Assembly (NCBI GenBank): GCA_030040035.1
Contig: JASHUJ010000075.1
Location: 1-60,954, forward strand
DNA length: 60,954 nucleotides
Direction: 5' to 3'
From: Thermoplasmata archaeon
GTDB taxonomy: Archaea; Thermoplasmatota; Thermoplasmata; Lutacidiplasmatales; UBA184
The notes below the pieces were generated by a model. It was given only the letters and a program-made list of their open reading frames with translations. It was not told where the DNA came from and made no database searches. Position numbers and translations under genes: made by a program. Shown one piece after another: positions 9,379 to 56,992 of this stretch; position 1 is the stretch's first letter; every line of letters begins with the position of its first letter.

Positions 9379-9524
9379 GCGCGCGAGAACGTCGCACGGT
9401 CCGCCGGCGTCCGAGGCCGATGGGCGCGCGACGCCGGTTGCTCGGGGCGAGCCGTGGTTACGCCCTCCGCAAGCCCGATCGGCGGGCGAAGTGATTTATC
9501 GGGGCACCCCACCCCCGCGCCGTC

Positions 9525-10469: not shown

Positions 10470-11592
10470 CCCGACCGCGACGCGCCCCGGGCACCGTCCG
10501 ACCGTCGATCCAGGCCCGCGCGCCATCGAGCTCGACCTCGGCTCCGGCGAGCGGACTCGAGAACCAGAATGAGCGGCCGGGCCGTCCGGGGCGGCGTCGC
10601 CCGTCGCCCAGCCCAAGGGAGATGGTGCGGGCGTCGATCGCCTCGAGCTCGGGAGCCCAACCGATCGCCGGGTTCAGCCCGAACGTGAGCACCCCGGGCC
10701 GGTCTCGGCCGGGCCCCGCGCGGTCGTACTGCGCCGCGAACGTCGCGCCACCGAGATCGAAGGAATAGTCCGTGAGTTGGCCCCGGTGGAAGGTCCACCG
10801 CGCCCCCGCCGTGGTCGGGGGTTCGAGAAAGCGTCGGTAGGTCCGTCGGTTCGACTCCCACGTACCCTCGGCGGTACCCGCGCGCAAGGGGAGCGCGACG
10901 GTACCGGAAGGGATCGAAGTACCGAGGCGAGCGGCGCGAGGGTCGGCCGGCCCGACCCTGCCGTCGTCGATCGCGATACCTCGGGGATCGATTTCGGCGA
11001 AGAAGTCCGTCCCGTTCGGATGTCGGACCCGCACCGTACGAGCCCGCGCGAGCCGACGCGCGAGCCGGATTCCCTTTCGATGCAGCTGACCCGGCGAGTA
11101 GAGGCTTGCCCGCCAGACCTGTCGCTGCCAGGCCTCGGGATCGACCCCGAAGTGCGCAGCGGCCGTGTCCGTCGTCATCGCGATGGCGAGCCGGGCCACG
11201 CGGACCCCGTGACGCTGTGCGGCGAGCCACCACGAGGGACCGTGACGGGCGACGGTCGTGTCCCGGTCCCGCTCGCGGAGTCCGTAGAGGCGAGGGAACG
11301 CCTCGGGGCCGGGCAGATAGACGTACACGTCGCTCCCCACGAGAAGCGCGGGGGACGAACGCGGCACGAAGCGGTTCCGGGGAAGCCGGAGTGAGCGGAA
11401 GAACGTCTCTTCCTCTTCGAGGACGAGGACGGGTTCGGCCCCCCGGCGGCGGGCCTCGTGGACCAGGGCGAGGGCCCACGGCAGCGCGTGGCCCCAGGTC
11501 TCGATGGTGACGAGCTCCCCGCGGCGCACCCCGAGAGCGGGGCCGAGGACGGACCGCGCGAGGAGCTCCTCCGCGTGCGCTGGGAGCGGCAT
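10456..11592 (-). CDS. aminopeptidase, peptidase M29 (AmpS/aminopeptidase T-like)
   Basis: ATG at 11592. MPLPAHAEELLARSVLGPALGVRRGELVTIETWGHALPWALALVHEARRRGAEPV is the typical M29 N-terminus. It is the 3' part of track ORF 10456..11904. Confidence 0.75.
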   Translation of the reverse strand: MPLPAHAEELLARSVLGPALGVRRGELVTIETWGHALPWALALVHEARRRGAEPVLVLEEEETFFRSLRLPRNRFVPRSSPALLVGSDVYVYLPGPEAFPRLYGLRERDRDTTVARHGPSWWLAAQRHGVRVARLAIAMTTDTAAAHFGVDPEAWQRQVWRASLYSPGQLHRKGIRLARRLARARTVRVRHPNGTDFFAEIDPRGIAIDDGRVGPADPRAARLGTSIPSGTVALPLRAGTAEGTWESNRRTYRRFLEPPTTAGARWTFHRGQLTDYSFDLGGATFAAQYDRAGPGRDRPGVLTFGLNPAIGWAPELEAIDARTISLGLGDGRRRPGRPGRSFWFSSPLAGAEVELDGARAWIDGRTVPGARRGRATSR

Positions 11593-11595
11593 CTT

Positions 11596-11960
11596 ACTTC
11601 GGGATTCCGAGGCGCGAACCGGACGAGCGTGGGTAGGAAAGTCCGGTCGTGCGGTCGGGAATTCGCCGGGGAACCCTCGGCCCCGTCCCGCCCGAGATCC
11701 TCCCGAGGGACTGCTGGGATTGAGGAGCGAAACCGAACTCGTGGGTCCGACCGCCGAGGATCCAACGGTCGGCGCAGGTCGCCTCCGGGCACGAGTCGAT
11801 TGAGGTGGGGACCAGAACACCCGATCGAAGATCCGTCGCGGTGGAGGAACGAAGGGCGCGCGCGGTCGAAAGGCGGTCGGGGAGCTCGAAAAGCCGCGGT
11901 CCAAGCGGATCCCCGGTGCGGCCGGCCCCCCCCAACCCGCTGGCTGGAGTCCCGCGCCGC
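11596..11960 (+). ncRNA. rnpB: candidate RNase P RNA (archaeal type A-like)
   Basis: It lies in a ~550-nt gap with no credible ORF.
- Exact CR-I core AGGAAAGUCCGG at 11635-11646.
- P4-like pairing of AGUCCGGU (11640-11647, U11642 bulged as in known P4) with GCUGGCU (11939-11945).
- This is followed immediately by an 8-bp P1-like helix, GGGAUUCC (11601-11608) with GGAGUCCC (11946-11953).
- GGAGCGAAACCGAACUCGUGGG (about 11722-11743) resembles the CR-III GAGCAA..CCAAAU..GGGG region.
The ends are approximate. Confidence 0.5.
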
Positions 11961-12143
11961 GCCACGTTCTCCGTCACGTGGGTGAGCAGAAGGAGTTTGT
12001 CAGTTGGGGTGGATCGGGGCACCGGTGGCGAGGACCCCGACGCACCCCTAGCCCCACCGGCCGAAGCCGTCGTTTCCCCGTCGGCGAGGCATGCTTCCCT
12101 CGTCCCGGCGGATGCCCGATCACGCCGCGCCTCTGGGACGCGG

Positions 12144-12785
12144 TCAGCGGACGGCCGTACTGAGCACGCTGGTCGCCGCGCTGAGGTCCGAATCGTCCAA
12201 GAGGAAGATCGTATCCGTGTAGCAGGAAAGCGCTTCGACGATGTTGATCCCCTGGGCGGCGAGCACGCCCGCGAGATGTCGCAGGAGGCCGGGGGTCTCC
12301 TCGATGCTTTCCGGGCTGGTGACCGCGACCTCGATGAGGTTCTTCCGCACCGAGATCAGCTGGCTCTCGCGCAGCGGCCGCGTGACCCGGGGAACGGAAT
12401 CCTCGTCGACGATGATCACCGTCCCGCGGGAGACCTGGATCAACCGGCAAAGGGAGTTCTCGTCCAACAGCTCCTCGACCACATCCCCGAGCCGCTGAAG
12501 CACATCGACGCTCTGCACCACCGTGATCGCGGCGACCTTCGTCCGGGTCTCGATCCGACTCTTGCGGAGCACCCGACGGATGCCGGTCTCTCGGAACGAC
12601 TCCGTCCCCCGGGGATACCGGCGGCAGGCGGCGAGGACCGCTTCGCCACCGGAGAGACCGAGGTCCTCGGACACGCGTCGTGCGATCGCCGAATAGTTCG
12701 CGATGCGCAGACGGATCGCGTCCGCGAGGACCGGATGGGTATCGAGGTAGGCGCGCACCTGTTCGGCGACAGAGGGCCTCGACAT
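12144..12785 (-). CDS. HTH + ACT-domain protein (probable amino-acid-responsive regulator)
   Basis: The N-terminus is helix-turn-helix-like (NYSAIARRVSEDLGLSGGEAVLAACRR). The C-terminus ETPGLLRHLAGVLAAQGINIVEALSCYTDTIFLLDDSDLSAATSVL is ACT_7-like. It is divergent from argG. Confidence 0.65.
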   Translation of the reverse strand: MSRPSVAEQVRAYLDTHPVLADAIRLRIANYSAIARRVSEDLGLSGGEAVLAACRRYPRGTESFRETGIRRVLRKSRIETRTKVAAITVVQSVDVLQRLGDVVEELLDENSLCRLIQVSRGTVIIVDEDSVPRVTRPLRESQLISVRKNLIEVAVTSPESIEETPGLLRHLAGVLAAQGINIVEALSCYTDTIFLLDDSDLSAATSVLSTAVR

Positions 12786-45814: not shown

Positions 45815-45947
45815 CGGATCGGCGGGCGGCGCCGGCCGCGAAGCTCCAAATACGTCGCAACCCTAGTACGCCTGGCTGTGGGGTCAGCCCGGCCCTCGTC
45901 CGAGGACCGAACCGCAGCGCGCTGCCAATGACCCCTGGGAAGAGGCA

Positions 45948-46430
45948 ATGCCCAGGGATACCGAAGCGCCACCGGAGTCGACGGCGACGAAAGGTCGGGA
46001 GCCGATGGCCCGGCCCCCCAGCGGGGGGACGTGGGTCCAGTTCTCCTCCTCGTTGAAAGAAGAGATCCGGCCGTGGATCGACCTCGACGAGGTCGAGATC
46101 GAAGGGTTCGAGACCTGGCTCCGGTCCGTGCTTCCGCTGATCCCTCGGGGCCCGTTCCACACGCCGGGCAAGCTGGCGACCGATCCGGTCCAACGGCTCT
46201 CCGAAGTGGCCCGCGCGCTGGCCGAGTGCGCCGGGGATCGGGCCCGGGCCAACTTCCAGGCCGCGACCTACTACCGGGAGAACCAGGTCCTGGCGCGTCG
46301 GGTCCGCGCGCTCGAAGCGGTCATCCGGACGACGGGATCGGACTCGGAGAAGGCGGCGCTGCTCGAGCCGGAGCCCGACGTGGACCAGGCGGCTTCGCGC
46401 TACATCCCGAAAGGCCGGGACGCGCTATGA
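45948..46430 (+). CDS. hypothetical protein
   Basis: 160-aa ORF whose stop overlaps the USP start (ATGA). No motif recognised. Confidence 0.4.
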   Translation: MPRDTEAPPESTATKGREPMARPPSGGTWVQFSSSLKEEIRPWIDLDEVEIEGFETWLRSVLPLIPRGPFHTPGKLATDPVQRLSEVARALAECAGDRARANFQAATYYRENQVLARRVRALEAVIRTTGSDSEKAALLEPEPDVDQAASRYIPKGRDAL

Positions 46431-46894
46431 GCGGCCCCGCTACCGCGTCGGGTCCTCCGTCGGCCGCCGCGCCCGCGCCGCCGGCCCGGATCGTGGTCGG
46501 GTTCGACGGATCGCCTCCCGCGAATCGCGCGGCCCGGCTCGCCCTCGCGCTCGCGCCGAGCGGAGCGGGGAACGTCTGGTTCGTGCATGCGACCCAGCCG
46601 GACCACCGGATGGCGGAGCCGCTCACGGACGAGGAGATCGTGGCCCCCAACCGCGCGGTGACGCGCGCGATGGAGTCGCTGCGCGCGTACGCCCAGCCCC
46701 GCGGCCTGTCGGCCTTCGTCGTCGATCGCGAGGGCGCCCCCGGCCCGGTGCTGATCGCGGTCGCGTCGGAGATCGGCGCGGAGCTGGTGGTCGTCGGGAC
46801 TCGGGGTCGAGGGGACGCGAGCCGGGTCCTCCTGGGTTCGGTGTCGGCGTACGTGGTGGCCCACGCGCCGGTACCGGTCGTCGTCGTCCCCTGA
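46427..46894 (+). CDS. universal stress protein (UspA family)
   Basis: IVVGFDGSPPANRAARLAL...AELVVVGTRGRGDASRVLLGSVSAYVVAHAPVPVVVV. Confidence 0.85.
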   Translation: MSGPATASGPPSAAAPAPPARIVVGFDGSPPANRAARLALALAPSGAGNVWFVHATQPDHRMAEPLTDEEIVAPNRAVTRAMESLRAYAQPRGLSAFVVDREGAPGPVLIAVASEIGAELVVVGTRGRGDASRVLLGSVSAYVVAHAPVPVVVVP

Positions 46895-46915
46895 GCGCGC
46901 GCCGTCGGGTCGCGG

Positions 46916-48190
46916 ATGGCGAACGACCGGGCGACGGCCCGTCCATCCGTTCGGATCCCGCATGACGTCTGGGCGGTCTCGATCACGAGCCTCTTCTCCG
47001 ATTGGAGCTACGAGATGCTCCTGCCCATCCTGCCGTTCTTTCTCGCCCTCGACCTCGGCGCCTCGCCGCTCGTCATCGGGTTCGTCGAGGGGGCCGCCGT
47101 TCTCGCCCAGAGCTGGACCCAGTTCGTCGCGGGACAGCGCCTCGCCGGCCGGGCGGATCGTCGGGCGGTCGGCACGGGCGGGTATGCAACCACGACCATC
47201 GCGCACGGGCTGGTCGCCCTCGCGACCGCCTGGCCGATCGCGGCCCTCCTCCGCGTCACCGCGTGGGGGGCGAGGGGCGAGCGACAACCGATCAAGAAGG
47301 CGATCCTCGCGGACGCCGCGGAGCCGGGCGCCCGCGGTCGTTCGTTCGGTCTCGAGCAGACGTTCGACTCCCTCGGAGCGGTCGGCGGCACGGCGTCGGC
47401 GGCGGTGCTGGTCGTCACCGACGGGCTCCCCGCGTTCCGATGGATCTTCGCGCTCAGCGTGCTGCCGGGGCTGGTCGCGGTCGTGCTCTTCTACCGCCTG
47501 GTCCGCGACCCGCCAGGGGCCAGCCGCGATGGACCGAGGGAAGCGGCCCGTCCTCCGCGGCCGTTCCCGCGACGGTTCCGCTGGTTCCTCGTCGCGGTCG
47601 CCGTCTTCGGTCTGGCGTACTTCAACATCCTGCTCGGTCTCCTGCGCGTCGGTACCGGCCTCCTCGCACCGGGAGGAGTCGGACCGGTCGGCGCGATCCT
47701 GGTCGCGCTCGTCGCGTACCTGCTCTACAATCTGGTCTACGCCGGCCTCTCCTATCCGGCCGGCCTCCTCGCCGTCCGATTTCCCGGGGCCGGTCTCGTG
47801 GGCGTGAGCTTCCTGCTCTTCGTGCCGGTCGACGTTCTCTTCGCGCTCACCCCGAGCGTGGGGGTCGCATTGGCCGCGTTCGGTCTCGCGGGGGCCCAGA
47901 TCGCGCTCGCCGACGTCACCACCTCGACGTGGATCGGCGGGACCGTCGACCCGGCCAGCCGGGGCCGGGCCTTCGGCTGGTTCGGGGCCGTCCAGGGAGC
48001 CGCCTCGTTGGGAGCGTCGGTGATCGTCGGCGGACTCTGGACGTACTACTCCGCGCCGGTGGCGTTCTCGGCGTCCGCGGTCCTGGCCGTACTCGGCGCC
48101 GCGTGCCTCCTGCCGATCCTCGGGAGGCGATCGGCAGGCGACGACGCCGGACCGCCCCGGGCCCCCGGCGGACGGCCCGCCGATCAATAG
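46916..48190 (+). CDS. MFS transporter
   Basis: 12-TM-type protein with SDWSYEMLLPILPFFL at the N-terminus. The 3' end overlaps the next gene convergently by 7 nt. Confidence 0.75.
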   Translation: MANDRATARPSVRIPHDVWAVSITSLFSDWSYEMLLPILPFFLALDLGASPLVIGFVEGAAVLAQSWTQFVAGQRLAGRADRRAVGTGGYATTTIAHGLVALATAWPIAALLRVTAWGARGERQPIKKAILADAAEPGARGRSFGLEQTFDSLGAVGGTASAAVLVVTDGLPAFRWIFALSVLPGLVAVVLFYRLVRDPPGASRDGPREAARPPRPFPRRFRWFLVAVAVFGLAYFNILLGLLRVGTGLLAPGGVGPVGAILVALVAYLLYNLVYAGLSYPAGLLAVRFPGAGLVGVSFLLFVPVDVLFALTPSVGVALAAFGLAGAQIALADVTTSTWIGGTVDPASRGRAFGWFGAVQGAASLGASVIVGGLWTYYSAPVAFSASAVLAVLGAACLLPILGRRSAGDDAGPPRAPGGRPADQ

Positions 48191-50187
48191 AACGCCGCGA
48201 CGTACATCACGACGAGCAGCACCACGATGAGGATGTACGCGAGATACCGACCGAGCCGTCCGGGCATCACCGCGGCCTTCAGCACCGCCGAGGTCCCCTG
48301 CCCGAGCCGGACGAGCGCCTCGTAGAACAGTTTGAAGGCGTCGAACACCTCGAGGTCCACGTTGTAGGCCGCGACGGGGTCGACGCCGGCGCCGCTCGAC
48401 TCGCCGGTCTCGGCCCGGACCTCCCGGGTCGACAGCACCGAGCGCATCATGATGCGGATCCCCGTGCCGTAGCCGAACGAGGTGTACGTCTCCCCCGGCT
48501 GCCCCGGGGGGCTTCCCGCCATCCAGATCGGCACGCGGCGTCGGGGGCGGGGACGACCGAGCGCGTAGTAGCCCGCCGCGACCGCCGCCCCGGCGACGAC
48601 GATGAACGGGATCATCGGCGGCGAGAGGATCCCGAACGGAGAGCCCGAGAGGATCGACCAGCCGTCGGGCACCGCGAGGAGCTGTCCCACGGGGGCCGCG
48701 ACCGAGCTCCCGGCGAAGCCCGAGACGGCGGGCGCGATGAACCGCAGGATCCAGGGCGCGAGGACGCCGATCGCGAGGACCATCGCCCCGACCGCCCCCA
48801 CGACCCCGCCGAGGCGCGACTCGGGCGGGCCCGCGCCCGAGGGCCGGGGGCGCCAGAGCATCGAGAAGCCGACGAACTTGACCATCGCGACCACGATCAG
48901 GCCCGCGGCGAGGGCCACCGCCGCACCGGCGAGGAGCCCCACGAACTCGACCCATGACTGACCGAAGCGGTACGATTGGAACAACGCCTCGAGCACCATC
49001 CACTCGCTCACGAATCCGGCGAGGGGCGGTCCGGCGGCCAGGCTGAGGGTGGCGATGATCGTGCCGCCGAACTCGCCCCGACTGCCCGATTTCGCCTGGC
49101 CCTCCACGGAGTTGAGGTCGAAGGTGTGCGCCGTGTGCTCGATGTACCCGGCGCTCAGGAAGAGGCCGGTCTTGGCGATCGCGTGGGCCAGGGCCTGGTA
49201 GAAGGCGGCGAAGAGCGCGAAGACGTAGAGTTCGTGCACCCCATCGCTCTGGGCGAGCAGGGCGACGCCCAGGGCGACGAGGATGAGACCGTTGTTCTCG
49301 ATGGTGCTGTAGGCCGGCAGGCCCTTCGAGTGCTCGCTCACGGCCGCGAAGAGGGCCCCGAGGAGGGCGGAGATCGCTCCGATCGCGAGGACCACGGCGC
49401 CCCACCAGAGCGGGGGGCTCGACAGGAGGCTCACGAGCCGGAAGAGCCCGTAGGCGCCCGCGAGCGTCAGGGTCGAGCTGAGGACCGCGGACGCGTTCGA
49501 CGGGGCCGAGGAATGCGCGATCGGGAGCCACTCGCTCAGATGGAACGGCGCGATGCCCATCTTGATCCCGAAGCCGAGCAGCCCCGCGACGAAGACCAGC
49601 GTCGCGAGGTCGCCCGGGCCGAGGTGCGGTCCGAAGGCGAAGACGCCGGTCCCGACGCGCAACCCGGCGAACGCGAGGGAGATGAACAGCGTGCTCGCTT
49701 CGCCGAACGCGAGAAAGACGAACGCGGCGGAGAAGATGCGCTCGCCCGGCCCCTTCGCCTGGAGGATCATGCCGTACGAGGCGAGGGTCATCGTCTCCCA
49801 GCCGATCAGGAACAGCACCTGATCCGAGGCGGCGATGAGGAGCGCGATCGAGCCGAGCGTCAGCGCGTACGTGATCGCGAGCAGCGGCGACCGCCGGTCG
49901 TCGTACGTCAGCGAATACACCGACGTGGCGACCCACACGAGCGCCGCGGCGAGCGCGAAGAACGCGGCGAGCGGGTCGAGCGTGAGGCCTTCCACGTCGC
50001 CGAGCGGGCCCGCCCACGTGGCGCCCGTCACGGAGCCGCCCGCGAGGACCAGGACCGCGACGATCCCGAGTCCCGCCGAACCGACGAGCGATCCGAGGTA
50101 CGGCCCGCGTCGGCCGAGCGGCCCCAGCGCCGCCCCGACGAAGAACGCGGCGACCGAGACCGTCAGGAGGAGCCCCGCCGGGTCCAT
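48184..50187 (-). CDS. NuoL/HyfB/MrpA-like antiporter-type membrane subunit
   Basis: 667 aa, ATG at 50187. GWETMTLASY...FGIKMGIAPFHLSEWLPIAHSSAPS. C-terminal amphipathic helix plus a terminal TM, like the NuoL lateral helix. Confidence 0.85.
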   Translation of the reverse strand: MDPAGLLLTVSVAAFFVGAALGPLGRRGPYLGSLVGSAGLGIVAVLVLAGGSVTGATWAGPLGDVEGLTLDPLAAFFALAAALVWVATSVYSLTYDDRRSPLLAITYALTLGSIALLIAASDQVLFLIGWETMTLASYGMILQAKGPGERIFSAAFVFLAFGEASTLFISLAFAGLRVGTGVFAFGPHLGPGDLATLVFVAGLLGFGIKMGIAPFHLSEWLPIAHSSAPSNASAVLSSTLTLAGAYGLFRLVSLLSSPPLWWGAVVLAIGAISALLGALFAAVSEHSKGLPAYSTIENNGLILVALGVALLAQSDGVHELYVFALFAAFYQALAHAIAKTGLFLSAGYIEHTAHTFDLNSVEGQAKSGSRGEFGGTIIATLSLAAGPPLAGFVSEWMVLEALFQSYRFGQSWVEFVGLLAGAAVALAAGLIVVAMVKFVGFSMLWRPRPSGAGPPESRLGGVVGAVGAMVLAIGVLAPWILRFIAPAVSGFAGSSVAAPVGQLLAVPDGWSILSGSPFGILSPPMIPFIVVAGAAVAAGYYALGRPRPRRRVPIWMAGSPPGQPGETYTSFGYGTGIRIMMRSVLSTREVRAETGESSGAGVDPVAAYNVDLEVFDAFKLFYEALVRLGQGTSAVLKAAVMPGRLGRYLAYILIVVLLVVMYVAAFY

Positions 50188-50188
50188 G

Positions 50189-50941
50189 TCAGTCCCCTCC
50201 GGCCGTCCGGGCGCGCCCGTGCACCCGCAGGATCGCGTCGAGGATCTCCACCGGGGCCGGGGGACACCCGGGAACAAAGACGTCGACCGGCACGAGCTCC
50301 TCCAAGCCGGCGAGGAGCCCCGGCGTCCCCGCGAACGCGCCGCCGCTGATCGGGCACACGCCGGCCGCGATCACCGCCTTCGGAGCGGGCAGGGCCTCGT
50401 ACGCGCGGAGGACGGCGGGCGCCATCTCGGGCGTGGGGATGCCCACGACGAGCAGGACATCCGCGTGGCGCGGGGAGCTGGTGAAGAAGATGCCCAGACG
50501 CTGCGAGTCGTAGAGCGGGTTCGCCAGCGCCAGGACCTCGAGATTGCAGGCATTGCAGCTGCCGGCGTCCACGAGGAAGACGTGCAGGGACCGGGGGAAC
50601 CCGACGAGCGGGGGCAGCGCCTCGACGAGGCCCGGGCCGGCCGGCGCGGCGGACCCGACGCGGAGCTCCGCCCGCCTCCCCGTCGAGGCTTCCACCGGAC
50701 CGCGGAACTCGAACCCGGCGGGCCGGCAGCGGGCGCAGCGAATGCACTTCCCTCGATCGAGCTCTTCCTCGGAGATCGCGCCGACGGGGCAGCGGGCGAC
50801 GCCGTCGTGCAGCGCCGCGTCGCCCCGGAGCGGGATGGGCGGCCGGGCGGTCTCGGGGACCTCGGCATCGGTCGCGGGCTCGGCCGGGTAGCGGCTCGTG
50901 ACGATGCCGTTCCGGGCCGCTTGTCCGATCCACGTCGGCAT
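50189..50941 (-). CDS. fusion of a single-cluster ferredoxin-like domain and a NuoB/HycG-like small subunit
   Basis: N-terminal CPVGAI...CIRCARC. C-terminal GSCNACNLE...GVCPISGG...PGCPP provides the four N2-type cluster cysteines. Confidence 0.85.
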   Translation of the reverse strand: MPTWIGQAARNGIVTSRYPAEPATDAEVPETARPPIPLRGDAALHDGVARCPVGAISEEELDRGKCIRCARCRPAGFEFRGPVEASTGRRAELRVGSAAPAGPGLVEALPPLVGFPRSLHVFLVDAGSCNACNLEVLALANPLYDSQRLGIFFTSSPRHADVLLVVGIPTPEMAPAVLRAYEALPAPKAVIAAGVCPISGGAFAGTPGLLAGLEELVPVDVFVPGCPPAPVEILDAILRVHGRARTAGGD

Positions 50942-50949
50942 CGTTCCCC

Positions 50950-52269
50950 CTACGCGTCGATCTCCGCGAAGACGAGGCCGAAGCTCTCCCACGCGAAGTG
51001 GAAATCGGTGAAGACGCCGTTGCGCAGTCCGCGGGCGAAGAGCGGGATGTTCGCCTGGCTCGCCGCGCGCATCCCGATCCGGGTCACCCGCCCATCCGAG
51101 GCCGTCACGTCGTAGACGAGGTCCCCGCTGGGGCTCTCGACCCGCGCGAGGCCCCGGCCCGGGGCGACCGGGGGGGCCGGCGAGAGGAGGCGGCCGGGAT
51201 CGCGGGGCCAGCGGTCGAGCATCTGCTCGAGCAGCAGGTAGCTCGACTGCACTTCGCGGGCCCGAACGAGCATGCGGGCGAGGGCATCTCCGGCCGACTC
51301 TTGCGACAGCTCGAGGAAGAGGTCGTTGTACGGCGTGACCGGCACGCGCAGCCGATCGTCCCACGCCACGCCGCACGCGCGCAAGGTCGGCCCGACGGCG
51401 CCCCAGCGCAGCGCCTCCTCGCGTCGCACGGGGCACGTCGCCTGGATCCGGTCGATGAACGTCCGGCTGCCGAGGAAGAGCTCCCAGAGGCGCTCGAACT
51501 GCTCCGAATGTAGGTTCAGCCGACGGCCGAGATCGCGCCGATCCGCCGCGTCGAGGTGCCGTCGGGGACCCCCCGGCAGGAGGGCGCCGAACAGCCATCG
51601 GTGACCGAAGATCGAGCCCTGGATGCGGAGCATCTCCTCCGCCAGCGCGTGCGTCTGGGCGGCGCCGACGTTCTGGCTCGCCGCCTCGGCCAGCCGGGCG
51701 AGCACGTGCACGTGGTTGTAGATCCGCTGCAGCTCCTGGGCGAGCGCCCGGACCCACAGTTCGCCCTCCGGCACTTCGATACCGGCTGCGCTCTCCGCCG
51801 CGGCGAGGTAGGCCGCGGCGTGGGCGGCCGAGAAGTTCCCGGCGAGCCGTTCGATGCGGAGCGCCCCGTCGGAAATGGGCTGCCCGGCGATCGACGTGAG
51901 GATCCGCCGCGACTTGAACCCCGTCACGGGTTCGAGGGAGAGGATCCGCTCGCCGTAGGTCCGGACCTCGAACTTCCCGCTCTCGGGCACCCCCATCGAG
52001 ACCGGCCCGTAGGGGAACGTGAAGATCCCGTACCCTTCGATCGTCTCCATCGGCCCGGCGGATCGGGTCAGTTCGGGCGTCCGGGACCGCTGCCAGGTCG
52101 CTCGGACCTCGGTGGGCACCGGGATCCGGATCCCGTGGCGAAGCACGGGCCGCCCCGTCGCGTAATCGTTGAACAGGGCGAACGTCGCGTCCTCGGGCGA
52201 GTACGCGAGCGCCCGTTCGGGGCCGTACGGATCGAACGGCTCCGTCTCGGAAGGCCGGACCGCGCTCAC
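50950..52269 (-). CDS. NuoD/[NiFe]-hydrogenase-large-subunit-like protein lacking all NiFe-ligand cysteines
   Basis: GTGA overlap at 52266-52269. GPVSMGVPESGKFEV..., ERLAGNFSAAH where group-4 hydrogenases have ERxCGxCxxxH. The C-terminus WESFGLVFAEIDA is NuoD-like, where DPCxxC is expected. Confidence 0.8.
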   Translation of the reverse strand: MSAVRPSETEPFDPYGPERALAYSPEDATFALFNDYATGRPVLRHGIRIPVPTEVRATWQRSRTPELTRSAGPMETIEGYGIFTFPYGPVSMGVPESGKFEVRTYGERILSLEPVTGFKSRRILTSIAGQPISDGALRIERLAGNFSAAHAAAYLAAAESAAGIEVPEGELWVRALAQELQRIYNHVHVLARLAEAASQNVGAAQTHALAEEMLRIQGSIFGHRWLFGALLPGGPRRHLDAADRRDLGRRLNLHSEQFERLWELFLGSRTFIDRIQATCPVRREEALRWGAVGPTLRACGVAWDDRLRVPVTPYNDLFLELSQESAGDALARMLVRAREVQSSYLLLEQMLDRWPRDPGRLLSPAPPVAPGRGLARVESPSGDLVYDVTASDGRVTRIGMRAASQANIPLFARGLRNGVFTDFHFAWESFGLVFAEIDA

Positions 52270-53702
52270 GGCGTCGAGCCTCCCAGGATCCGGGCGGCCG
52301 CGCCCAAGGCGCCCGAGAGGTAGGGGAGCGCGGCGACCCCGATCACGAGCGCCACGCCGACGTTGACGAACGCGATCCACGCCCCGTCCTCGGCCCCGGG
52401 ATGCGCCGGGCCGGGCGCGGCCGTCGGCTCGCCGAAGACCATGCGGCCGATCTGCGAGTTCACCCCGAGGAAGGCGATCAGGATCACGAGAGCGAGGAGC
52501 AGTGCCACGTCGTACCAGCCGGCCGCGAGCGCGCCCACGACGATGAGGAGCTCTCCGAGGAACGTCCCGAACGGCGGCGCGCCCGTGACCGCGAAGGCGG
52601 CCAGGATCCAGGCCCCGCTGGTGCGGGGCATCCGATGCCGGAGGTCCCGGACCTCGTCGATGCGGTTCGTGCCCGTCCCCCGCAGCACGTTGCCCGAGCA
52701 GTAGAACGCGGCCGACTTCGCGAACGCGTGGGCGACGAGCAGGACCAGGGCGCCGTAGAGCGCGACCCCCCCGAGGGCGAGCCCGACGACCGCGATGCCC
52801 ATGACCTCCATGCTCGAGTAGGCGAACAGCCGCTTGAACGACCGCTGGCGCTGGAGGAGGAACGCCCCCACGAACGCCGAGGTCAGGCCGAAGAGGATCA
52901 GGAGATCGGTGATCGCGGCCGGGGCCGGCCGGGGGAGGATCGCGTAGACCCGGGCGAACGTGTAGAGCGCGGTCGGGAGCAGCACGCCCGAGAACAACGC
53001 CGAGATCGGGGAGGGCGCTTCGGAGTGGGCATCCGGGAGCCACGAGTGCATGGGGAAGAGCCCGACCTTCGTCCCGTAGCCGACGAGGGCGAGCGCGACC
53101 GCCATCTCGATCGGGAGCGTCACCGCGGGGGGCGCGGCCGCGAGCGCGAACGCGTCGAGGGTGCCGGTCGTCGCGTAGATGAGGAGCAGCGCGAAGAGGG
53201 CGATCGTGAGGCCGGCCGAGGCGATCAGCGTGTAGCGCCAGGCCGCCTCGACGCTCGTCGGCTTGCGCTCGAGCACGATCAGGAGCGCGCTCGCGACGGT
53301 CGTCGCTTCGATCCCGATCCACATCAGACCGAGATCGGACACGACCAGCGTCGCGATCATCGCGAACGCGAAGGCGTGGAGGAGCGCGTAGTAGATCTGC
53401 GGTGTGAGGAACGGCCGGTGGACCGCCCGCAGGTACCCGTCCGAGTACCACGCCGACGTGGCGTAGATGCTGGTGACCATCACGAGGAACACCTCGCTGA
53501 GCGAGTCGAGCCCGAGGTACTCCCCCCAGCGGCCGCTGGCCCCCTCGACGAGGAGACCGAGCGCCGCGGCGAGGGCGACGAGGGACCCGATGCGCGCCGC
53601 GTCGCGCCCGACGGCGGGATACGGCACGAGCGCGAGGACCGCGCTCGCGGCCGGGGCGACGAGGAGCAGGAAGAGCCAGAGGGTGTCGAGCGCGTCGTTC
53701 AT
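52266..53702 (-). CDS. NuoN/NuoM/HyfF/MrpD-like antiporter-type subunit
   Basis: 478 aa polytopic. GYGTKVGLFPMHSWLPDAHSEAPSPISALFSG. Confidence 0.85.
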   Translation of the reverse strand: MNDALDTLWLFLLLVAPAASAVLALVPYPAVGRDAARIGSLVALAAALGLLVEGASGRWGEYLGLDSLSEVFLVMVTSIYATSAWYSDGYLRAVHRPFLTPQIYYALLHAFAFAMIATLVVSDLGLMWIGIEATTVASALLIVLERKPTSVEAAWRYTLIASAGLTIALFALLLIYATTGTLDAFALAAAPPAVTLPIEMAVALALVGYGTKVGLFPMHSWLPDAHSEAPSPISALFSGVLLPTALYTFARVYAILPRPAPAAITDLLILFGLTSAFVGAFLLQRQRSFKRLFAYSSMEVMGIAVVGLALGGVALYGALVLLVAHAFAKSAAFYCSGNVLRGTGTNRIDEVRDLRHRMPRTSGAWILAAFAVTGAPPFGTFLGELLIVVGALAAGWYDVALLLALVILIAFLGVNSQIGRMVFGEPTAAPGPAHPGAEDGAWIAFVNVGVALVIGVAALPYLSGALGAAARILGGSTP

Positions 53703-54346
53703 CCGGAGAGCTCCTCCAACGCCGACTCCTCGGGGGTGCCCGTCACGTCACGCTGGATCGAGAGGATCACGCCGACGAGCACGACCCCGAGGACGTCGAG
53801 AAAGACGACGGTCTCGACGAACAGCGGGAAGGCGTGCGCGTAGAGCGCGCCGGCGTAGACGATGGCGTTCTCTTCCTCGAGATACCCGATGACCTGGACG
53901 AGGGTGTTCGAGCGGGTCGCGAGCATCAAGAGTCCCTGGACGAGGAGCACGAACGGGAGCGCGGCGCCGACCTCGGGGAACCCGGACGCGAACGTCTGCT
54001 GGAACACGAACCACGCGATGATCGCGGCCGCGACGGCCGCGAGCGCGTGACCGGTCACCCGGTTCGCGGCGTGGATCTCGCGGAGGCGCCAGCGGAAGGC
54101 CCGGATCTGGCGGCGCAGGACGTACGGGATCACCAGGGCCCGGATGATGACCGTGAGGGCCGCGAGGACGAGCAGGTCGAGACTCTTCTCGGACCAAGCG
54201 AGCCAGCCCAGGAGAAGAGCGAGCAGCAGGGATTGGAGCGCGATCCCGCCGATCATCGGATCGACGAACGACTCCGACTGGAGGTAGAGGGCGGTGAGCA
54301 GGATGCCGACGCCCACCAGGGCGACGACCTCGGTCGAACCGTCCAT
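53699..54346 (-). CDS. HyfE/NuoK-like small membrane subunit
   Basis: 215 aa, about 6 TM. ATGA-type overlap with the next gene. Position and size match hydrogenase-4 component E. Confidence 0.7.
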   Translation of the reverse strand: MDGSTEVVALVGVGILLTALYLQSESFVDPMIGGIALQSLLLALLLGWLAWSEKSLDLLVLAALTVIIRALVIPYVLRRQIRAFRWRLREIHAANRVTGHALAAVAAAIIAWFVFQQTFASGFPEVGAALPFVLLVQGLLMLATRSNTLVQVIGYLEEENAIVYAGALYAHAFPLFVETVVFLDVLGVVLVGVILSIQRDVTGTPEESALEELSG

Positions 54347-55303
54347 CTAGGCCGCCCCCAGCACCGCGAAGGCGAAGACCGACAGGATCGCGAGGGAGAA
54401 CGACAGGGCGAGGTAGTCCCGGATCTTGAACAGGCGGACCTTCGCGATCGTCGCCTCGATGACCGCGAGGCCGCCCATCAGCGCGAGCAGCTTGGCGAAC
54501 AACACCCCGATGTTGATCGTCGCGTCGAGGAGCGTCGGTTGGGCGAAGAGGCCCCACGGGGCCGCGAAGACGTTCAGGAAGACGGCGCAGAGGAGGAACT
54601 GCTTCATCCAGCCGTTCCAGCGCAGGATGCCGAGCAGCCGGCCCGAGTGCTCGAACAGGCGCCCGTCCTCGAGCATTCCGAATTCCATCAGCCCCGCGCT
54701 CTCCACGGGCAGGCGACCGATCTCGGCCAGGAGCAACAGGAAGAACGCGCCGGTCACGAGGAGGTGCGTTGGGGAGAGATACGCCGAGCTCGAGGAGGTC
54801 AGCAGGTTGTTCGTGACGTACGGGTTGTTCGTCCCGGTGATCACGGCGACCGCGAAGAAGACGACGATGAGGGTCGGCTCGCCGAACGCCGCGAACGACA
54901 CCGTCCGACTGGCCCCGAGGGCGGCGTAGTTACTGCCCGAGTCCAGGGCCGCCAGGAGGGTCAGCGTCCCGGCGAGGGCGAACATCAGCCCGCCGCCCAG
55001 AAAGTCGACGGTGGAGGCGAAGGGGATCGGATACGGGGTGATGATGGGCACGACGATCGAGATGAGCAGGTACGCGCCGAACGCGAGGATCGGGGCGATC
55101 ACGAAGACCGCCGACGAGCCGTCCGGAACCAGGGTGTCCTTCCGCAGATACTTGGCGAGATCGAAGTACGGCTGGAAGATCGAAGGACCCCGTCGGGACT
55201 CGGTCCACGCCTTCCACCGCGCCGACACCCCCGCCAGGAGCGGCGAGAGGAGGAGCACCGTCGCGGCCTGCAGGACGTTGACCGCTTGCTCGGTCGCGTT
55301 CAC
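54347..55303 (-). CDS. NuoH/HycD/HyfC-like membrane subunit
   Basis: GTG at 55303. SPLLAGVSARWKAWTESRRGPSIFQPYFDLAKYLRKD is typical of HycD/NuoH N-termini. Confidence 0.85.
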   Translation of the reverse strand: MNATEQAVNVLQAATVLLLSPLLAGVSARWKAWTESRRGPSIFQPYFDLAKYLRKDTLVPDGSSAVFVIAPILAFGAYLLISIVVPIITPYPIPFASTVDFLGGGLMFALAGTLTLLAALDSGSNYAALGASRTVSFAAFGEPTLIVVFFAVAVITGTNNPYVTNNLLTSSSSAYLSPTHLLVTGAFFLLLLAEIGRLPVESAGLMEFGMLEDGRLFEHSGRLLGILRWNGWMKQFLLCAVFLNVFAAPWGLFAQPTLLDATINIGVLFAKLLALMGGLAVIEATIAKVRLFKIRDYLALSFSLAILSVFAFAVLGAA

Positions 55304-55307
55304 CTTG

Positions 55308-55331
55308 CCTACTCCCCGTTTCGAGAGTAGG
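55308..55331 (-). promoter_or_regulatory. 5'-leader hairpin covering the SD-like GAGUAGG of the complex's first gene
   Basis: CCTACTC (55308-55314) pairs with GAGTAGG (55325-55331), with a 10-nt loop. On the mRNA the purine-rich arm ends 4 nt before the GTG start. Confidence 0.3.
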
Positions 55332-55480
55332 CGTCATTGGCCCGAGGGCGGTTTGCCGGGGGACCCGGCCGGCGGACGCCTCCGCCGACCGTTTAGGAAA
55401 CGCAGCAGTACTTAGGCGTGGCGCTGCGGCTCCCCGAGGGAGCCGAGCGGAACCAGCTTTCCCCCACCCGTCCGAGGGTT

Positions 55481-56143: not shown

Positions 56144-56446
56144 CGTCGGAGCCCAGAGCCGGTCGCCTCTTCAGCCTGGCCGTCCGCTCCGTCGCGAGGC
56201 GAGGGGCTCCCCCCTATGCTCTCGAGAGCCTACCCGACCGGCAAATCCTAAAGAGACCTCGGCAGAATGGTCGGCCCGGCGATGGGGCTCGCCGGAACTT
56301 CCGCGACGCGGATGATGGCTCCTACGGACGGAACCGATGAGGCCCCCGAGTCCGAGTGCACCGCCGCCCAACTCTAGCGGAGCTCCAGCGAGCGGCGTCC
56401 GTTGCGGACCGCGGCCCGAACGATCCGCCTCCCGAGGAAGCTCCCC

Positions 56447-56992
56447 ATGACTTCGGAGAGCCCCCGGAAGCCCGGTCGGGCGGGCTCGCCCGGTGGGGAC
56501 TTCCCCGCGCATATCGAGGTACGAGATGAGGAAATCCGCGTCGTGGTCGCCGTCGCGATCCAGCGCGAAGGGCGAGTGCTCGTCATCCGGGAGGAGGACG
56601 AACCGGACCATCACGCGTGGGTGTTTCCCCAGGGGTATCCGAAACCGGGCGAGGGCCTCGCCGAGGCCGCCCGACGCGAGGCGTTCGAGGAACTCGGCCT
56701 GGACGTGGAGCTCGACGGGCTGCTCGGGGTGTACGAGGGCTTCTCGGAACCCGGGGTCGAACCCCGAATTCACCGGGTGACCATCTGCTACCGGGCCCAC
56801 CCCGTCCAGAACGCGACGCCCCGGGCGAGTCGCGAGGCGATCGACTCGGCGTGGATCGACCCCGCCTCGATCGCCCCGGCCTCGATGCCCTCGATCCGGC
56901 GCCCGCTCGAGGATCTCCGAGCGAGTTCTCCTGCCGCAGGTCGACGACCCCGGCGCCCGTCCGGCACGGCTCGCCGCGCGGTCACGCCGTGA
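56447..56992 (+). CDS. NUDIX hydrolase
   Basis: Nudix box GYPKPGEGLAEAARREAFEELGL. ATG at 56447 within track ORF 56402..56992. Confidence 0.8.
   Translation: MTSESPRKPGRAGSPGGDFPAHIEVRDEEIRVVVAVAIQREGRVLVIREEDEPDHHAWVFPQGYPKPGEGLAEAARREAFEELGLDVELDGLLGVYEGFSEPGVEPRIHRVTICYRAHPVQNATPRASREAIDSAWIDPASIAPASMPSIRRPLEDLRASSPAAGRRPRRPSGTARRAVTP

What the first reader, a model, noticed from the sequence alone, without database searches (positions are those of the whole stretch)
48184..55303. Stand-alone six-gene minimal complex-I-like module with unusual subunit set (ferredoxin-NuoB fusion, no NuoC, no NuoI)
**Seen directly.**
- The minus-strand order is NuoH-like, HyfE-like, NuoN/HyfF-like, NuoD-like, [Fd-like + NuoB-like fusion], NuoL/HyfB-like.
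- Every junction overlaps or is separated by 8 nt or less.
- The NuoB-like part keeps its four cluster cysteines (GSCNACNLE, GVCPISGG, PGCPP).
- The fused N-terminal domain has only four cysteines (CP...CxxCxxC). That is enough for one cluster instead of the two in NuoI/HycF.
- I see no NuoC/HycE-N-terminal-like domain and no electron-input module (formate dehydrogenase, CODH or NuoEFG) in the flanks. Those flanks are an MFS gene and a histidine phosphatase gene.

**Inference.** This is a compact ferredoxin- or unknown-donor-driven ion pump.
Basis: partly seen in the sequence, partly recalled or inferred. Interest (0 to 1): 0.6.

Follow-up and report, generated by a model that had tools for sequence, protein, structure and literature searches.

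The report
Fluoride-switched hydrogenase-like membrane complex
This six-gene operon of a soil archaeon encodes a member of the known but unexplained "Ehr" family of hydrogenase-like membrane complexes. It sits behind a fluoride-type riboswitch, which suggests that it moves ions to help the cell survive fluoride and acid stress, not to make hydrogen.

Summary
Six tightly packed minus-strand genes encode, in order:
- a NuoH/HycD-like subunit
- a HyfE-like subunit
- a HyfF-like subunit
- a NuoD-like large subunit without NiFe cysteines
- a ferredoxin-NuoB fusion
- a HyfB/NuoL-like subunit

This is the known, functionally unsolved Ehr (energy-converting hydrogenase-related) architecture. The "ferredoxin" domain is a truncated HycF/NuoI that keeps one of its two clusters. 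NuoI-NuoB fusions are already described for Ehr and are common in many phyla.

What is specific to Thermoplasmata is the loss of the NuoC domain, which most bacterial Ehr fuse to the large subunit. An unrelated-looking stretch of about 85 residues stands in its place.

The main new point is regulatory. A crcB-type (fluoride) riboswitch variant at 55321-55395 lies directly before the first gene. Its tail pairs with the ribosome-binding tract.
- The same element is found at the same place in 15 related genomes.
- 29 of 39 "NuoH-first" Ehr loci from many phyla have one. None of 18 Geobacter-order loci do.
- Two more such leaders flank the operon in this window.

Best reading: a fluoride-induced ion translocator, possibly ferredoxin-driven here. 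This scan had already noted a fluoride-switched Ehr on other DNA. Function remains untested.

The parts
55321..55395 (-). crcB-type (fluoride) riboswitch aptamer, a variant with an extra hairpin, in the 5' leader of the operon
   Evidence: - RF01734 scores 31.4 bits, below the gathering score of 34. E = 3.1e-7 in the 231-nt leader and 5.2e-7 genome-wide.
- The same element lies 3.06-3.11 kb upstream of the large-subunit gene in 15 other genomes of the family. Two of these score above gathering.
- P1, P3, the pseudoknot and the extra hairpin are supported by covariation.
55307..55332 (-). Expression-platform hairpin: the aptamer's 3' tail (GCCUACUCUC) pairs with GGGAGUAGGC, the purine tract that ends 3 nt before the GTG start
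   Evidence: - The MFE fold is -56.5 kcal/mol, z = -4.07.
- The arms covary in relatives: CCUACUC/GAGUAGG, CCUACCC/GGGUAGG, CCUACCUUCG/CGAAGGUAGG.
54347..55303 (-). NuoH/HycD-like membrane subunit (318 aa), first gene of the operon
   Evidence: - PF00146, E = 3.5e-31.
- Best PDB match is HycD 7z0s_D, E = 2.9e-28.
53699..54346 (-). HyfE-like membrane subunit (215 aa)
   Evidence: NCBIfam NF008556 (hydrogenase 4 membrane subunit), E = 7.6e-11.
52266..53702 (-). HyfF/NuoN-like antiporter-like subunit (478 aa)
   Evidence: - PF00361, E = 2.6e-54; NF005042 HyfF, E = 1.1e-116.
- The TM5 Glu, TM7 Lys, TM8 Lys and TM12 Glu motifs are visible in the sequence.
50950..52269 (-). Ehr large subunit (439 aa): a NuoD/HycE-like domain from about residue 87 without NiFe ligands, preceded by a clade-specific 85-aa N-terminal mini-domain in place of NuoC
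   Evidence: - PF00346.
- The profile matches MbhL 6cfw_L at 1.5e-39 and HycE 7z0s_E at 2e-33, starting at position 87.
- RxCGxC reads RLAGNF and DPCxxC reads ESFGLVF.
- AF2 model pLDDT 89. Foldseek top hit is HycE, TM 0.76.
50189..50941 (-). Ehr small subunit (250 aa): a truncated HycF/NuoI domain (one [4Fe-4S] site) fused to a NuoB/HycG domain (one [4Fe-4S] site, CxxC type)
   Evidence: - PF01058.
- The N-terminal profile's best PDB hit is HycF 7z0s_F, E = 6.9e-4, aligned from residue 1.
- All eight Cys are invariant.
- AF2 model pLDDT 87.
48184..50187 (-). HyfB/NuoL-like antiporter-like subunit (667 aa), last gene of the operon
   Evidence: - NF005046 HyfB, E = 3.1e-113.
- Matches HycC 7z0s_C at 3.6e-31, with the WETM Glu, GIKMG Lys, AKT Lys and SEW Glu conserved.
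45865..45944 (+). Second variant crcB-type leader, before the convergent unk160-Usp-MFS genes
   Evidence: - RF01734 scores 20.4 bits, E = 9e-4 in 171 nt. This is weak on its own.
- Equivalent hits lie before the same gene pair in G385, G292, G348 and G216.
- The pseudoknot covaries: GGGGU/ACCCC.
45948..46894 (+). Conserved neighbour pair, convergent with the operon: an unknown 160-aa protein (45948-46430) and a universal stress protein (46427-46894, ATGA overlap)
   Evidence: - The same pair follows the HyfB-like gene in L002, L012, L013 and L014.
- The unknown protein is 44% identical to its L002 counterpart, E = 7e-43.
- The Usp sequence is shown.
56269..56331 (+). Canonical fluoride riboswitch before the NUDIX gene (56402-56992), 0.9 kb upstream of the operon's leader on the other strand
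   Evidence: RF01734 scores 41.6 bits, above the gathering score of 34, E = 3.7e-8.

Best explanation
**What it is.** The operon encodes an Ehr-type complex. Ehr stands for energy-converting hydrogenase-related: a derivative of group-4 [NiFe]-hydrogenases, close to FHL/Hyf.

**What it keeps and lacks**
- It keeps the membrane arm: a NuoH-like subunit, a HyfE-like subunit and two antiporter-like subunits with their charged transmembrane residues.
- It keeps a short two-cluster wire: an N6b-like cluster in the HycF remnant and the proximal NuoB cluster.
- It has no NiFe site, no canonical quinone ligands and no NuoC domain.

**How it is controlled.** Translation of the operon is gated by a crcB-type riboswitch.
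- Without ligand, the aptamer's 3' tail pairs with the purine tract just before the GTG start.
- With ligand, most likely fluoride, the tail is held in the aptamer's pseudoknotted fold and the tract is freed.

**Likely role (inferred).** The complex is made under fluoride stress and expels protons or Na+ without using ATP. This would counter the cytoplasmic acidification and loss of ion homeostasis caused by HF influx.

**Likely power source in this clade (inferred).** Both cluster sites are invariant, so the pump is probably driven by reduced ferredoxin from 2-oxoacid:ferredoxin oxidoreductases. The acceptor at the remodelled NuoD/NuoB/NuoH pocket is unknown.

**Shown versus inferred**
- Shown: gene content, lost and retained ligands, riboswitch fold and position, and the association across many phyla.
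- Inferred: fluoride as the ligand of this variant, the direction and ion of transport, and the donor and acceptor.
For: **Architecture**
- Homology of all six subunits.
- NiFe motifs are replaced in this operon and in all 80 related loci examined.
- The eight Fe-S cysteines are invariant in 46 relatives.
- Ehr is defined in the literature as six syntenic genes with NuoH, NuoL, HyfE and HyfB homology plus large and small subunits without NiFe motifs, function unknown (PMC4378227, PMC6349859 with Supplementary Note 4, PMC7894505, PMC10284858).

**Riboswitch**
- An RF01734 match ends 18 nt before the start codon.
- A match on the same strand lies 3.06-3.11 kb upstream of the large-subunit gene in 16 genomes of the family, counting this one.
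- 94.5% of cells are paired against 82.6% in shuffles, and 12 of 19 pairs show compensatory changes. The pseudoknot is 100% paired with 3 covarying pairs.
- The sequestering hairpin forms in the MFE fold and its arms covary.
- A canonical riboswitch (42.3 bits) precedes a distant Thermoplasmata Ehr.
- 29 of 39 NuoH-first loci from many phyla have a hit upstream, against 0 of 18 HyfB-first loci.
- Rfam's own model confirms the riboswitch in 8 of 8 bacterial loci tested, at 39.5-55.2 bits.

**Physiological context**
- Reviews list 'formate hydrogen lyase' and Na+/H+ antiporters among the genes most often associated with fluoride riboswitches, and link fluoride stress to cytoplasmic acidification (PMC11139923, PMC8752731).
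- 2-oxoacid:ferredoxin oxidoreductases are present in 5 of 5 genomes that carry the module.
Against: - This copy of the aptamer scores 31.4 bits, below Rfam's gathering score of 34. It differs from the consensus in the loop (GAGG instead of AUGG) and the 3' core (CCAAUGA instead of CUGAUGA), so ligand specificity is not proven.
- No electron acceptor can be named. The NuoD-like pocket lacks both NiFe and quinone ligands.
- Actinobacterial relatives have lost all four NuoB cysteines (DEDS) yet keep the complex. The family's shared function may therefore not need the wire.
- CrcB was not found in this 74%-complete genome.
- No Ehr complex has been characterised biochemically in the literature held.
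Confidence: 0.6

Rival explanations
1. A constitutive ferredoxin-driven (or unknown-donor-driven) respiratory ion pump. It would work as a minimal second complex I that feeds electrons to a quinone and have no special link to fluoride. The upstream RNA would be a degenerate or re-purposed element.
For: - Two invariant [4Fe-4S] sites and an intact membrane arm.
- 2-oxoacid:ferredoxin oxidoreductases are present.
- The aptamer copy scores below Rfam's gathering score and has core substitutions.
Against: - The riboswitch is kept at the same place in 16 genomes, with covariation and a covarying sequestering hairpin.
- Canonical fluoride riboswitches precede orthologous operons in many phyla.
- The genome already has a canonical nuo operon.
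- The module is patchy within the genus. Near-complete genomes lack it.
- The quinone-ligand Tyr and His motifs are absent.
Confidence: 0.15
2. A redox-independent, Mrp-like cation/proton antiporter. The peripheral arm would be only a structural or regulatory cap, and the Fe-S clusters would act as a redox or stress sensor instead of a wire.
For: - Relatives in Actinobacteria have lost the NuoB cluster (DEDS), and others have lost its fourth Cys.
- Earlier scan notes describe Ehr clades with no clusters at all.
- No donor or acceptor module is conserved nearby.
- Na+/H+ antiporters are the second most common gene class associated with fluoride riboswitches (PMC11139923).
Against: - In this clade all eight cluster cysteines are invariant over more than 100 sequence clusters at 57-81% identity. 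This argues that the clusters matter here.
- The NuoD-like pocket is also strongly conserved.
Confidence: 0.2
3. A true formate hydrogenlyase or H2-evolving group-4 hydrogenase, as the 'formate hydrogen lyase' annotation in the fluoride-riboswitch literature implies.
For: - The closest solved relatives are MbhL and HycE.
- Source annotations read 'Ni,Fe-hydrogenase III' and 'formate hydrogenlyase subunit'.
Against: - All four NiFe cysteines are replaced.
- A molybdopterin formate dehydrogenase is missing in 4 of 5 genomes with the module.
- HypD was not found. This is weak evidence, because a group-3 hydrogenase is present.
Confidence: 0.02
4. A decaying relic without function.
For: - The distribution within the genus is patchy.
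- One relative has split genes.
Against: - Six intact, translationally coupled genes.
- Dozens of invariant residues across 42-46 sequences.
- Conserved regulation by a structured leader.
Confidence: 0.03

Closest known systems
Ehr (energy-converting / Ech-hydrogenase-related) complexes. Examples: Geobacter sulfurreducens EhrA-D, L, S (GSU0739-45); M. tuberculosis Rv0082-87; Ehr of Sulfobacillus, Margulisbacteria, comammox Nitrospira, ammonia-oxidising archaea and Methanomassiliicoccales
   Same: - Six genes: NuoH-like, HyfE-like, HyfF-like, HyfB/NuoL-like, a large subunit without NiFe cysteines, and a NuoB-like small subunit.
- The NuoI-NuoB fusion is described for Ehr (PMC6349859 Supplementary Note 4).
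- Function is unknown.
- The gene order H-E-F-L-S-B is a circular permutation of Geobacter's A-B-C-D-L-S order. It is the commonest order in the 80 loci examined.
   Different: - The NuoC domain, which most bacterial Ehr fuse to the large subunit, is absent. A clade-specific 85-aa mini-domain stands in its place.
- The pocket has its own signature: FPYGPxSMGVPESG, GFKSRR, ERLAGNxSAxH.
- Riboswitch control has not been described for Ehr in the literature held.
E. coli formate hydrogenlyase / hydrogenase-4 (Hyc/Hyf; PDB 7Z0S)
   Same: - Best or near-best solved homologues of every subunit: HycD, HycC, HycE, HycF and HycG.
- HyfE- and HyfF-type subunits, as in Hyf.
   Different: - No NiFe ligands.
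- HycF is reduced to one cluster and fused to HycG.
- No NuoC-like N-domain of HycE.
- No HycB or FdhF partner.
'Formate hydrogen lyase' genes of the fluoride-riboswitch regulon (Baker et al. 2012, as cited in PMC11139923 and PMC8752731)
   Same: An FHL-like operon directly behind a crcB-motif RNA. It is surrounded by other members of that regulon: Usp, NUDIX, a MutS pair and a phosphatase.
   Different: - The complex cannot be a formate hydrogenlyase.
- The aptamer here is a variant with an extra hairpin and a changed pseudoknot sequence.
- It is an archaeal example with translational control.
Respiratory complex I / archaeal 11-subunit Nuo/Fpo-like complex
   Same: Homologous NuoB, D, H, I and L/M/N modules, and the same L-shaped logic of a short Fe-S wire plus antiporter-like subunits.
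   Different: - No NuoA, J, K or C.
- The proximal cluster has CxxC, not the tandem CC.
- No RLDY-type quinone Tyr.
- A separate canonical nuo operon exists on contig C78.

Membership tests
Ehr complex | Group-4-hydrogenase-like large subunit that lacks the RxCGxC and DPCxxC NiFe motifs | tested here: met
   The motifs read RLAGNF and ESFGLVF. Homology to MbhL and HycE is shown.
Ehr complex | NuoB-like small subunit plus NuoH-, HyfE-, HyfF- and HyfB-like membrane subunits in one six-gene cluster | tested here: met
   The same cluster is found in relatives.
Ehr complex | NuoI homologue fused to NuoB, as described for many Ehr | tested here: met
   The N-terminal profile hits HycF 7z0s_F, E = 6.9e-4, aligned from residue 1.
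Ehr complex | NuoC homologue fused to the large subunit, as described for many Ehr | tested here: not met
   - No PF00329 or PDB hit for residues 1-92.
- hhalign gives 0.2% against NuoC, and 2.3% against the NuoC domains of bacterial Ehr after trimming the shared NuoD start.
- This feature is not universal in the family, so membership stands.
Group 4 [NiFe]-hydrogenase (FHL/Hyf/Mbh/Ech) | Four NiFe-ligating cysteines in the large subunit | tested here: not met
Group 4 [NiFe]-hydrogenase (FHL/Hyf/Mbh/Ech) | Hyp maturation genes in the genome | tested here: inconclusive
   HypD was not found in 5 genomes. However, a group-3 large subunit with an intact RICGIC motif is present, so the negative result is unreliable.
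Respiratory complex I | NuoC, NuoI (two clusters), NuoA, NuoJ and NuoK subunits; tandem-Cys N2 site; quinone Tyr/His in NuoD | tested here: not met
   - The subunit set is shown.
- The proximal cluster motif is GSCNAC, of the CxxC type.
- The NuoD-like subunit reads ERLAGNF where NuoD has RLDY. That comparison rests on my own knowledge of NuoD.
- A canonical nuo operon lies elsewhere in the genome.
Fluoride riboswitch (crcB motif, RF01734) | Score at or above Rfam's gathering threshold (34 bits) | tested here: not met
   - This copy scores 31.4 bits.
- Orthologous leaders score 36.3 bits (G292) and 35.6 bits (G144), and L042 scores 42.3 bits.
- It works like, and is clearly derived from, the family. 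This copy is a divergent variant.
Fluoride riboswitch (crcB motif, RF01734) | P1, P3 and the pseudoknot between the P1 loop and the 3' tail | tested here: met
   P1 and the pseudoknot are 100% paired, with compensatory changes (A-U to C-G to G-C). None of 500 shuffles reach the observed values.
Fluoride riboswitch (crcB motif, RF01734) | Binds fluoride and switches expression on | not testable with these tools
   This needs in-line probing or a reporter assay.

The most novel reading that the evidence does not exclude
The NuoH-first subfamily of Ehr complexes, including this NuoC-less archaeal form, is a dedicated fluoride-stress machine. It would be an ATP-independent proton or sodium pump, ferredoxin-powered where the clusters are kept, that is switched on by fluoride to hold cytoplasmic pH and membrane potential while HF cycles across the membrane. 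The 'formate hydrogen lyase' class of the fluoride regulon would then be misnamed, and the long-unknown function of at least this branch of Ehr would be ion homeostasis under fluoride and acid stress.
Probability: 0.35. Interest if true: 0.8.

Novelty: new variant of a known kind. Interest (0 to 1): 0.55.

Why it matters
Ehr complexes occur in many phyla, including M. tuberculosis, Geobacter, nitrifiers and soil bacteria, and have had no known function for about 20 years.

This analysis shows that one large branch, including this archaeal operon, sits directly behind fluoride riboswitches. It also shows that these are the genes the riboswitch literature calls 'formate hydrogen lyase', although they cannot make hydrogen. 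That gives a concrete hypothesis which can be tested in cultured carriers.

The Thermoplasmata form has six subunits, two clusters and no NuoC. It is among the smallest complex-I-like machines that still has a redox wire, which makes it attractive for structural work on how such machines couple to ion transport.

Tried and rejected
- **Hidden NuoC in the large subunit's N-terminus.**
  - The Pfam scan of 33 members found no hit.
  - The profile search of PDB found no hit at E <= 10.
  - hhalign against canonical NuoC gave 0.2%.
  - hhalign against the NuoC domains of bacterial Ehr first gave 72%. This was an artefact of the shared NuoD start. After trimming it fell to 2.3%, with score 17.1 against 13.7 for a reversed control.
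  - At most a vestige of about 20 residues of the NuoC tail (ALYNDY..G..VL against LHDDWP.G.PLRKD) may remain. This is not significant.
- **The conserved 160-aa neighbour as a NuoC substitute.** hhalign gave 0.15%.
- **A formate dehydrogenase partner (the FDH-Ehr idea of PMC6349859).** A molybdopterin enzyme is absent in 4 of 5 genomes with the module.
- **Absence of Hyp as an argument against hydrogenase activity.** Dropped, because a group-3 hydrogenase is present.
- **Literature.**
  - The first two searches on 'Ehr' were swamped by electronic health records.
  - Marreiros 2013, Coppi 2005 and Baker 2012 are not held.
  - The search for related loci failed with a 30-sequence alignment and worked with 9 sequences.
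  - Foldseek on the fusion model reported only NuoB-domain matches and did not bear on the HycF-like domain.

Full report
**1. Observation.** The window is a whole 60,954-bp contig of a 74%-complete genome assembled from a metagenome. Source names of close homologues place it in soil Thermoplasmata archaea.

Six minus-strand genes occupy 48184-55303. Their junctions are 0 nt, -4 nt, -4 nt, +8 nt and +1 nt. Pfam and NCBIfam assign them as follows:
- NuoH/HycD-like
- HyfE-like
- HyfF-like
- NuoD/large-subunit-like
- NuoB-like with a weak N-terminal Fer4 signal
- HyfB-like

Only the start of the last gene needs moving, to the ATG at 50187.

**2. The peripheral arm.**

*Large subunit.*
- A 42-sequence family profile matches MbhL (6cfw_L, 1.5e-39) and HycE (7z0s_E, 2e-33). 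The match begins only at about position 87.
- The AlphaFold model has pLDDT 89. Its best structural match is HycE, with TM-score 0.76.
- RxCGxC reads RLAGNF and DPCxxC reads ESFGLVF, so there is no NiFe site.
- GYxHRGxEK reads GFKSRRI. The NuoD-type RLDY quinone tyrosine is also absent. That last comparison rests on my own knowledge of NuoD.

*Small subunit.*
- The first 100 residues are a HycF/NuoI homologue. A 35-sequence profile finds HycF (7z0s_F) as its best PDB hit, E = 6.9e-4. The alignment runs from residue 1 and includes the N-terminal TxxYP motif.
- Only the Cys-Pro of the first ferredoxin motif and the CxxCxxC of the second remain.
- In two-cluster ferredoxin folds, this set of four ligates one cluster. 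In Thermus Nqo9 it corresponds to N6b, the cluster next to N2. This is established knowledge and was not tested here.
- The NuoB domain keeps a CxxC-type, hydrogenase-like proximal site.
- All eight cysteines are invariant in 46 relatives.

**3. Is NuoC hidden?**
- Residues 1-92 of the large subunit give no Pfam hit in 33 members.
- They give no PDB hit at E <= 10.
- hhalign gives 0.2% probability against canonical NuoC.
- Against the NuoC domains that bacterial Ehr fuse to their large subunits, the first hhalign result (72%) came from the shared NuoD start. After trimming it fell to 2.3%.
- The model shows a small element of three strands and one helix.
- The genome's only PF00329 hit lies in a canonical nuoB-C-D-H operon on contig C78.
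- Near-complete relatives that carry the module also have a single NuoC.

NuoC is therefore absent, apart from at most an insignificant vestige of its tail.

**4. Membrane arm.**
- The HyfB-like subunit aligns with HycC and MbhH. The TM5 Glu, TM7 Lys, TM8 Lys and TM12 Glu are conserved.
- The HyfF-like sequence shows the same motifs.
- The NuoH-like subunit is closest to HycD (2.9e-28) and keeps the conserved loop motifs.

Nothing suggests a disabled ion path.

**5. What family is it?** The literature defines Ehr as six syntenic genes: NuoH-, NuoL/HyfB-, HyfE- and HyfF-like subunits, plus large and small subunits that lack the NiFe motifs. Its function is unknown.
- Sources: PMC4378227, PMC7894505, PMC10284858, PMC10432482, PMC6728331 and PMC6147122.
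- PMC6349859 Supplementary Note 4 states that in many Ehr the NuoB gene also encodes a NuoI homologue and the NuoD gene a NuoC homologue.

A scan of species-representative genomes returned 80 loci from Thermoplasmata, ammonia-oxidising archaea, Acidobacteria, Actinobacteria, Verrucomicrobia, Proteobacteria and others. In these loci:
- All large subunits lack NiFe cysteines.
- The order H-E-F-L-S-B, as found here, is the commonest. A second order starts with the HyfB-like gene, as in Geobacter.
- Most bacterial large subunits carry a detectable NuoC domain. The Thermoplasmata ones (L038-L040, L042, L079) have no room for it.
- The four-Cys, one-cluster NuoI domain is frequent. Proteobacteria keep eight Cys. 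Actinobacteria have lost the NuoB cysteines (DEDS).

The clade-specific features are the missing NuoC and the clade's own pocket signature.

The close clade includes the 85-aa N-terminus and shares at least 52% identity. It is confined to one Thermoplasmata family and is patchy within the genus. Genomes that are 95-100% complete lack it.

**6. Partners.**
- The flanks differ between relatives, so this is not a split operon.
- One neighbour is conserved: a convergent pair made of an unknown 160-aa protein and a universal stress protein, seen in 4 of 4 relatives.
- In the window, an MFS gene has been inserted between that pair and the operon.
- A molybdopterin formate dehydrogenase is missing in 4 of 5 genomes with the module.
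- 2-oxoacid:ferredoxin oxidoreductases are present in all five.

**7. The riboswitch.** Two earlier scan notes prompted a test. One described a fluoride-switched Ehr in an Acidimicrobiales bacterium. The other described a fluoride-regulon MutS pair next door in this window.

*In the window.*
- Rfam finds a canonical fluoride riboswitch at 56269-56331 (+), 41.6 bits, before the NUDIX gene.
- It also finds a match at 55321-55395 (-), 31.4 bits against a gathering score of 34, E = 3.1e-7. This match ends 18 nt before the GTG of the first Ehr gene.
- A third, weaker copy (20.4 bits) lies at 45865-45944 (+), before the unk160-Usp-MFS genes.

*In relatives.*
- I combined the family-wide riboswitch search with the large-subunit coordinates. 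A match on the same strand lies 3.06-3.11 kb upstream of the large-subunit gene in 15 further genomes. That position is exactly before the NuoH-like gene. Two of these matches exceed the gathering score.
- Three genomes that carry the module showed no hit.

*The leaders.*
- They are nearly identical in their core (GGCGGAGGCGUCCGCC ... AACCGCC..GGCCAAUGACGCCUAC).
- They carry an extra hairpin between P1 and the AACC stretch.

*Covariation, on a 21-sequence alignment.*
- 94.5% of cells are paired, against 82.6% in shuffles and 31-52% when the partners are slid.
- 12 of 19 pairs show compensatory changes.
- The pseudoknot is 100% paired. It reads GGAGU/ACUCC in the consensus, GGCGU/ACGCC in the Ehr leaders and GGGGU/ACCCC in the Usp leaders.

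*Expression platform.*
- The aptamer's 3' tail pairs with the purine tract that ends 3 nt before the start codon.
- The arms of this hairpin covary between relatives.
- This is the design of a translational ON switch.

**8. Breadth of the association.**
- A canonical riboswitch (42.3 bits) precedes the Ehr of a distant Thermoplasmata lineage.
- I built a covariance model from the alignment. It finds a hit within 400 nt upstream of the first gene in 29 of 39 NuoH-first loci and in 0 of 18 HyfB-first loci. Relatedness inflates this contrast.
- Rfam's own model confirmed the riboswitch in 8 of 8 bacterial loci tested, at 39.5-55.2 bits. Each of these loci has two to four riboswitches in all.
- Reviews list 'formate hydrogen lyase' and Na+/H+ antiporters among the commonest genes associated with fluoride riboswitches, and link fluoride stress to cytoplasmic acidification by HF (PMC11139923, PMC8752731).
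- I found no paper in the held library that connects Ehr with fluoride riboswitches.

**9. Mechanism.**

*Shown.*
- A hydrogenase-derived complex with an intact membrane arm.
- A conserved two-cluster wire, no catalytic metal site and no NuoC.
- Translational control by a crcB-type aptamer.

*Inferred.*
- Fluoride induces the complex.
- The complex expels H+ or Na+ without ATP and so relieves the acid and ion load of HF influx.
- In this clade, reduced ferredoxin probably powers it.

*Unresolved.*
- The acceptor is unknown.
- Relatives without the NuoB cluster suggest that the function shared across the family may be ion transport that does not strictly need electron flow.

Confidence in the overall statement is 0.6. 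It is higher (about 0.9) for riboswitch control as such, and lower (about 0.35) for ferredoxin-driven pumping.

**10. Verdict.** This is a new variant of a known kind:
- an Ehr complex without NuoC
- an archaeal example
- controlled by a variant crcB aptamer

The scan had already found a fluoride-switched Ehr on other DNA, so the link itself is not new to this project. This window adds:
- three riboswitch-type leaders in one fluoride-response island
- covariation support for the riboswitch fold
- a contrast between Ehr subfamilies across many phyla

Noticed in passing
window 45865-48190 (+): A weak third crcB-type leader (20.4 bits) precedes an operon of an unknown 160-aa protein, a universal stress protein (ATGA-coupled) and an MFS transporter. 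The unknown-Usp pair is convergent with the Ehr operon in all four relatives examined, and four other genomes also have a riboswitch-like hit before it.
   Followed up: partly
window 56269-56992 (+): A canonical fluoride riboswitch (41.6 bits) lies before a NUDIX hydrolase gene. Together with the MutS pair further right, the phosphatase and the Usp, the last 15 kb of the contig look like a fluoride-response island.
   Followed up: partly
G000:C16:3387-5215 (L138): The genome's strongest fluoride riboswitch (47.7 bits) precedes a 586-aa dynamin-family GTPase. CrcB (PF02537) was not found in this 74%-complete genome. One CLC gene lies on C132.
   Followed up: partly
G000:C176:1-2621 (L009): A group-3b-like [NiFe]-hydrogenase cluster: an NAD-binding/FeS subunit, a small subunit, and a large subunit with an intact RICGIC motif. 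Yet HypD was not found in this genome or in four related genomes.
   Followed up: partly
L043, L046, L061, L087, L089, L106 (Actinomycetes, Solirubrobacterales and other Actinomycetota): The small subunits of these Ehr operons have replaced all four NuoB cluster cysteines by D, E, D and S, while keeping the four cysteines of the NuoI-like domain. Several Acidobacteria and Verrucomicrobia have lost only the fourth NuoB Cys.
   Followed up: partly
L012 / L039 (contig_2006 of MFD03399.bin.2.20), locus positions 8681-9996 and 10746-12757: In this relative the large subunit and the HyfB-like gene are each split in two (69+378 aa and 132+538 aa). The cause could be frameshifts or long-read assembly indels.
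   Followed up: no
alignment A9, columns 9 and 62 (window 55375 and 55339, minus strand): All 19 variant aptamers have G and C at these two positions, where the two canonical aptamers have A and U. This may be a covarying tertiary pair of the fluoride-binding core. I recall such an A-U pair from the Thermotoga structure but did not check it.
   Followed up: no
L093 (Fulvimonas soli DSM 14263), L063/L064 (Paraburkholderia): These cultured bacteria carry NuoH-first Ehr operons. In Fulvimonas soli the operon is preceded by a 50.6-bit fluoride riboswitch and the locus has three more. These organisms are candidates for genetic tests.
   Followed up: no
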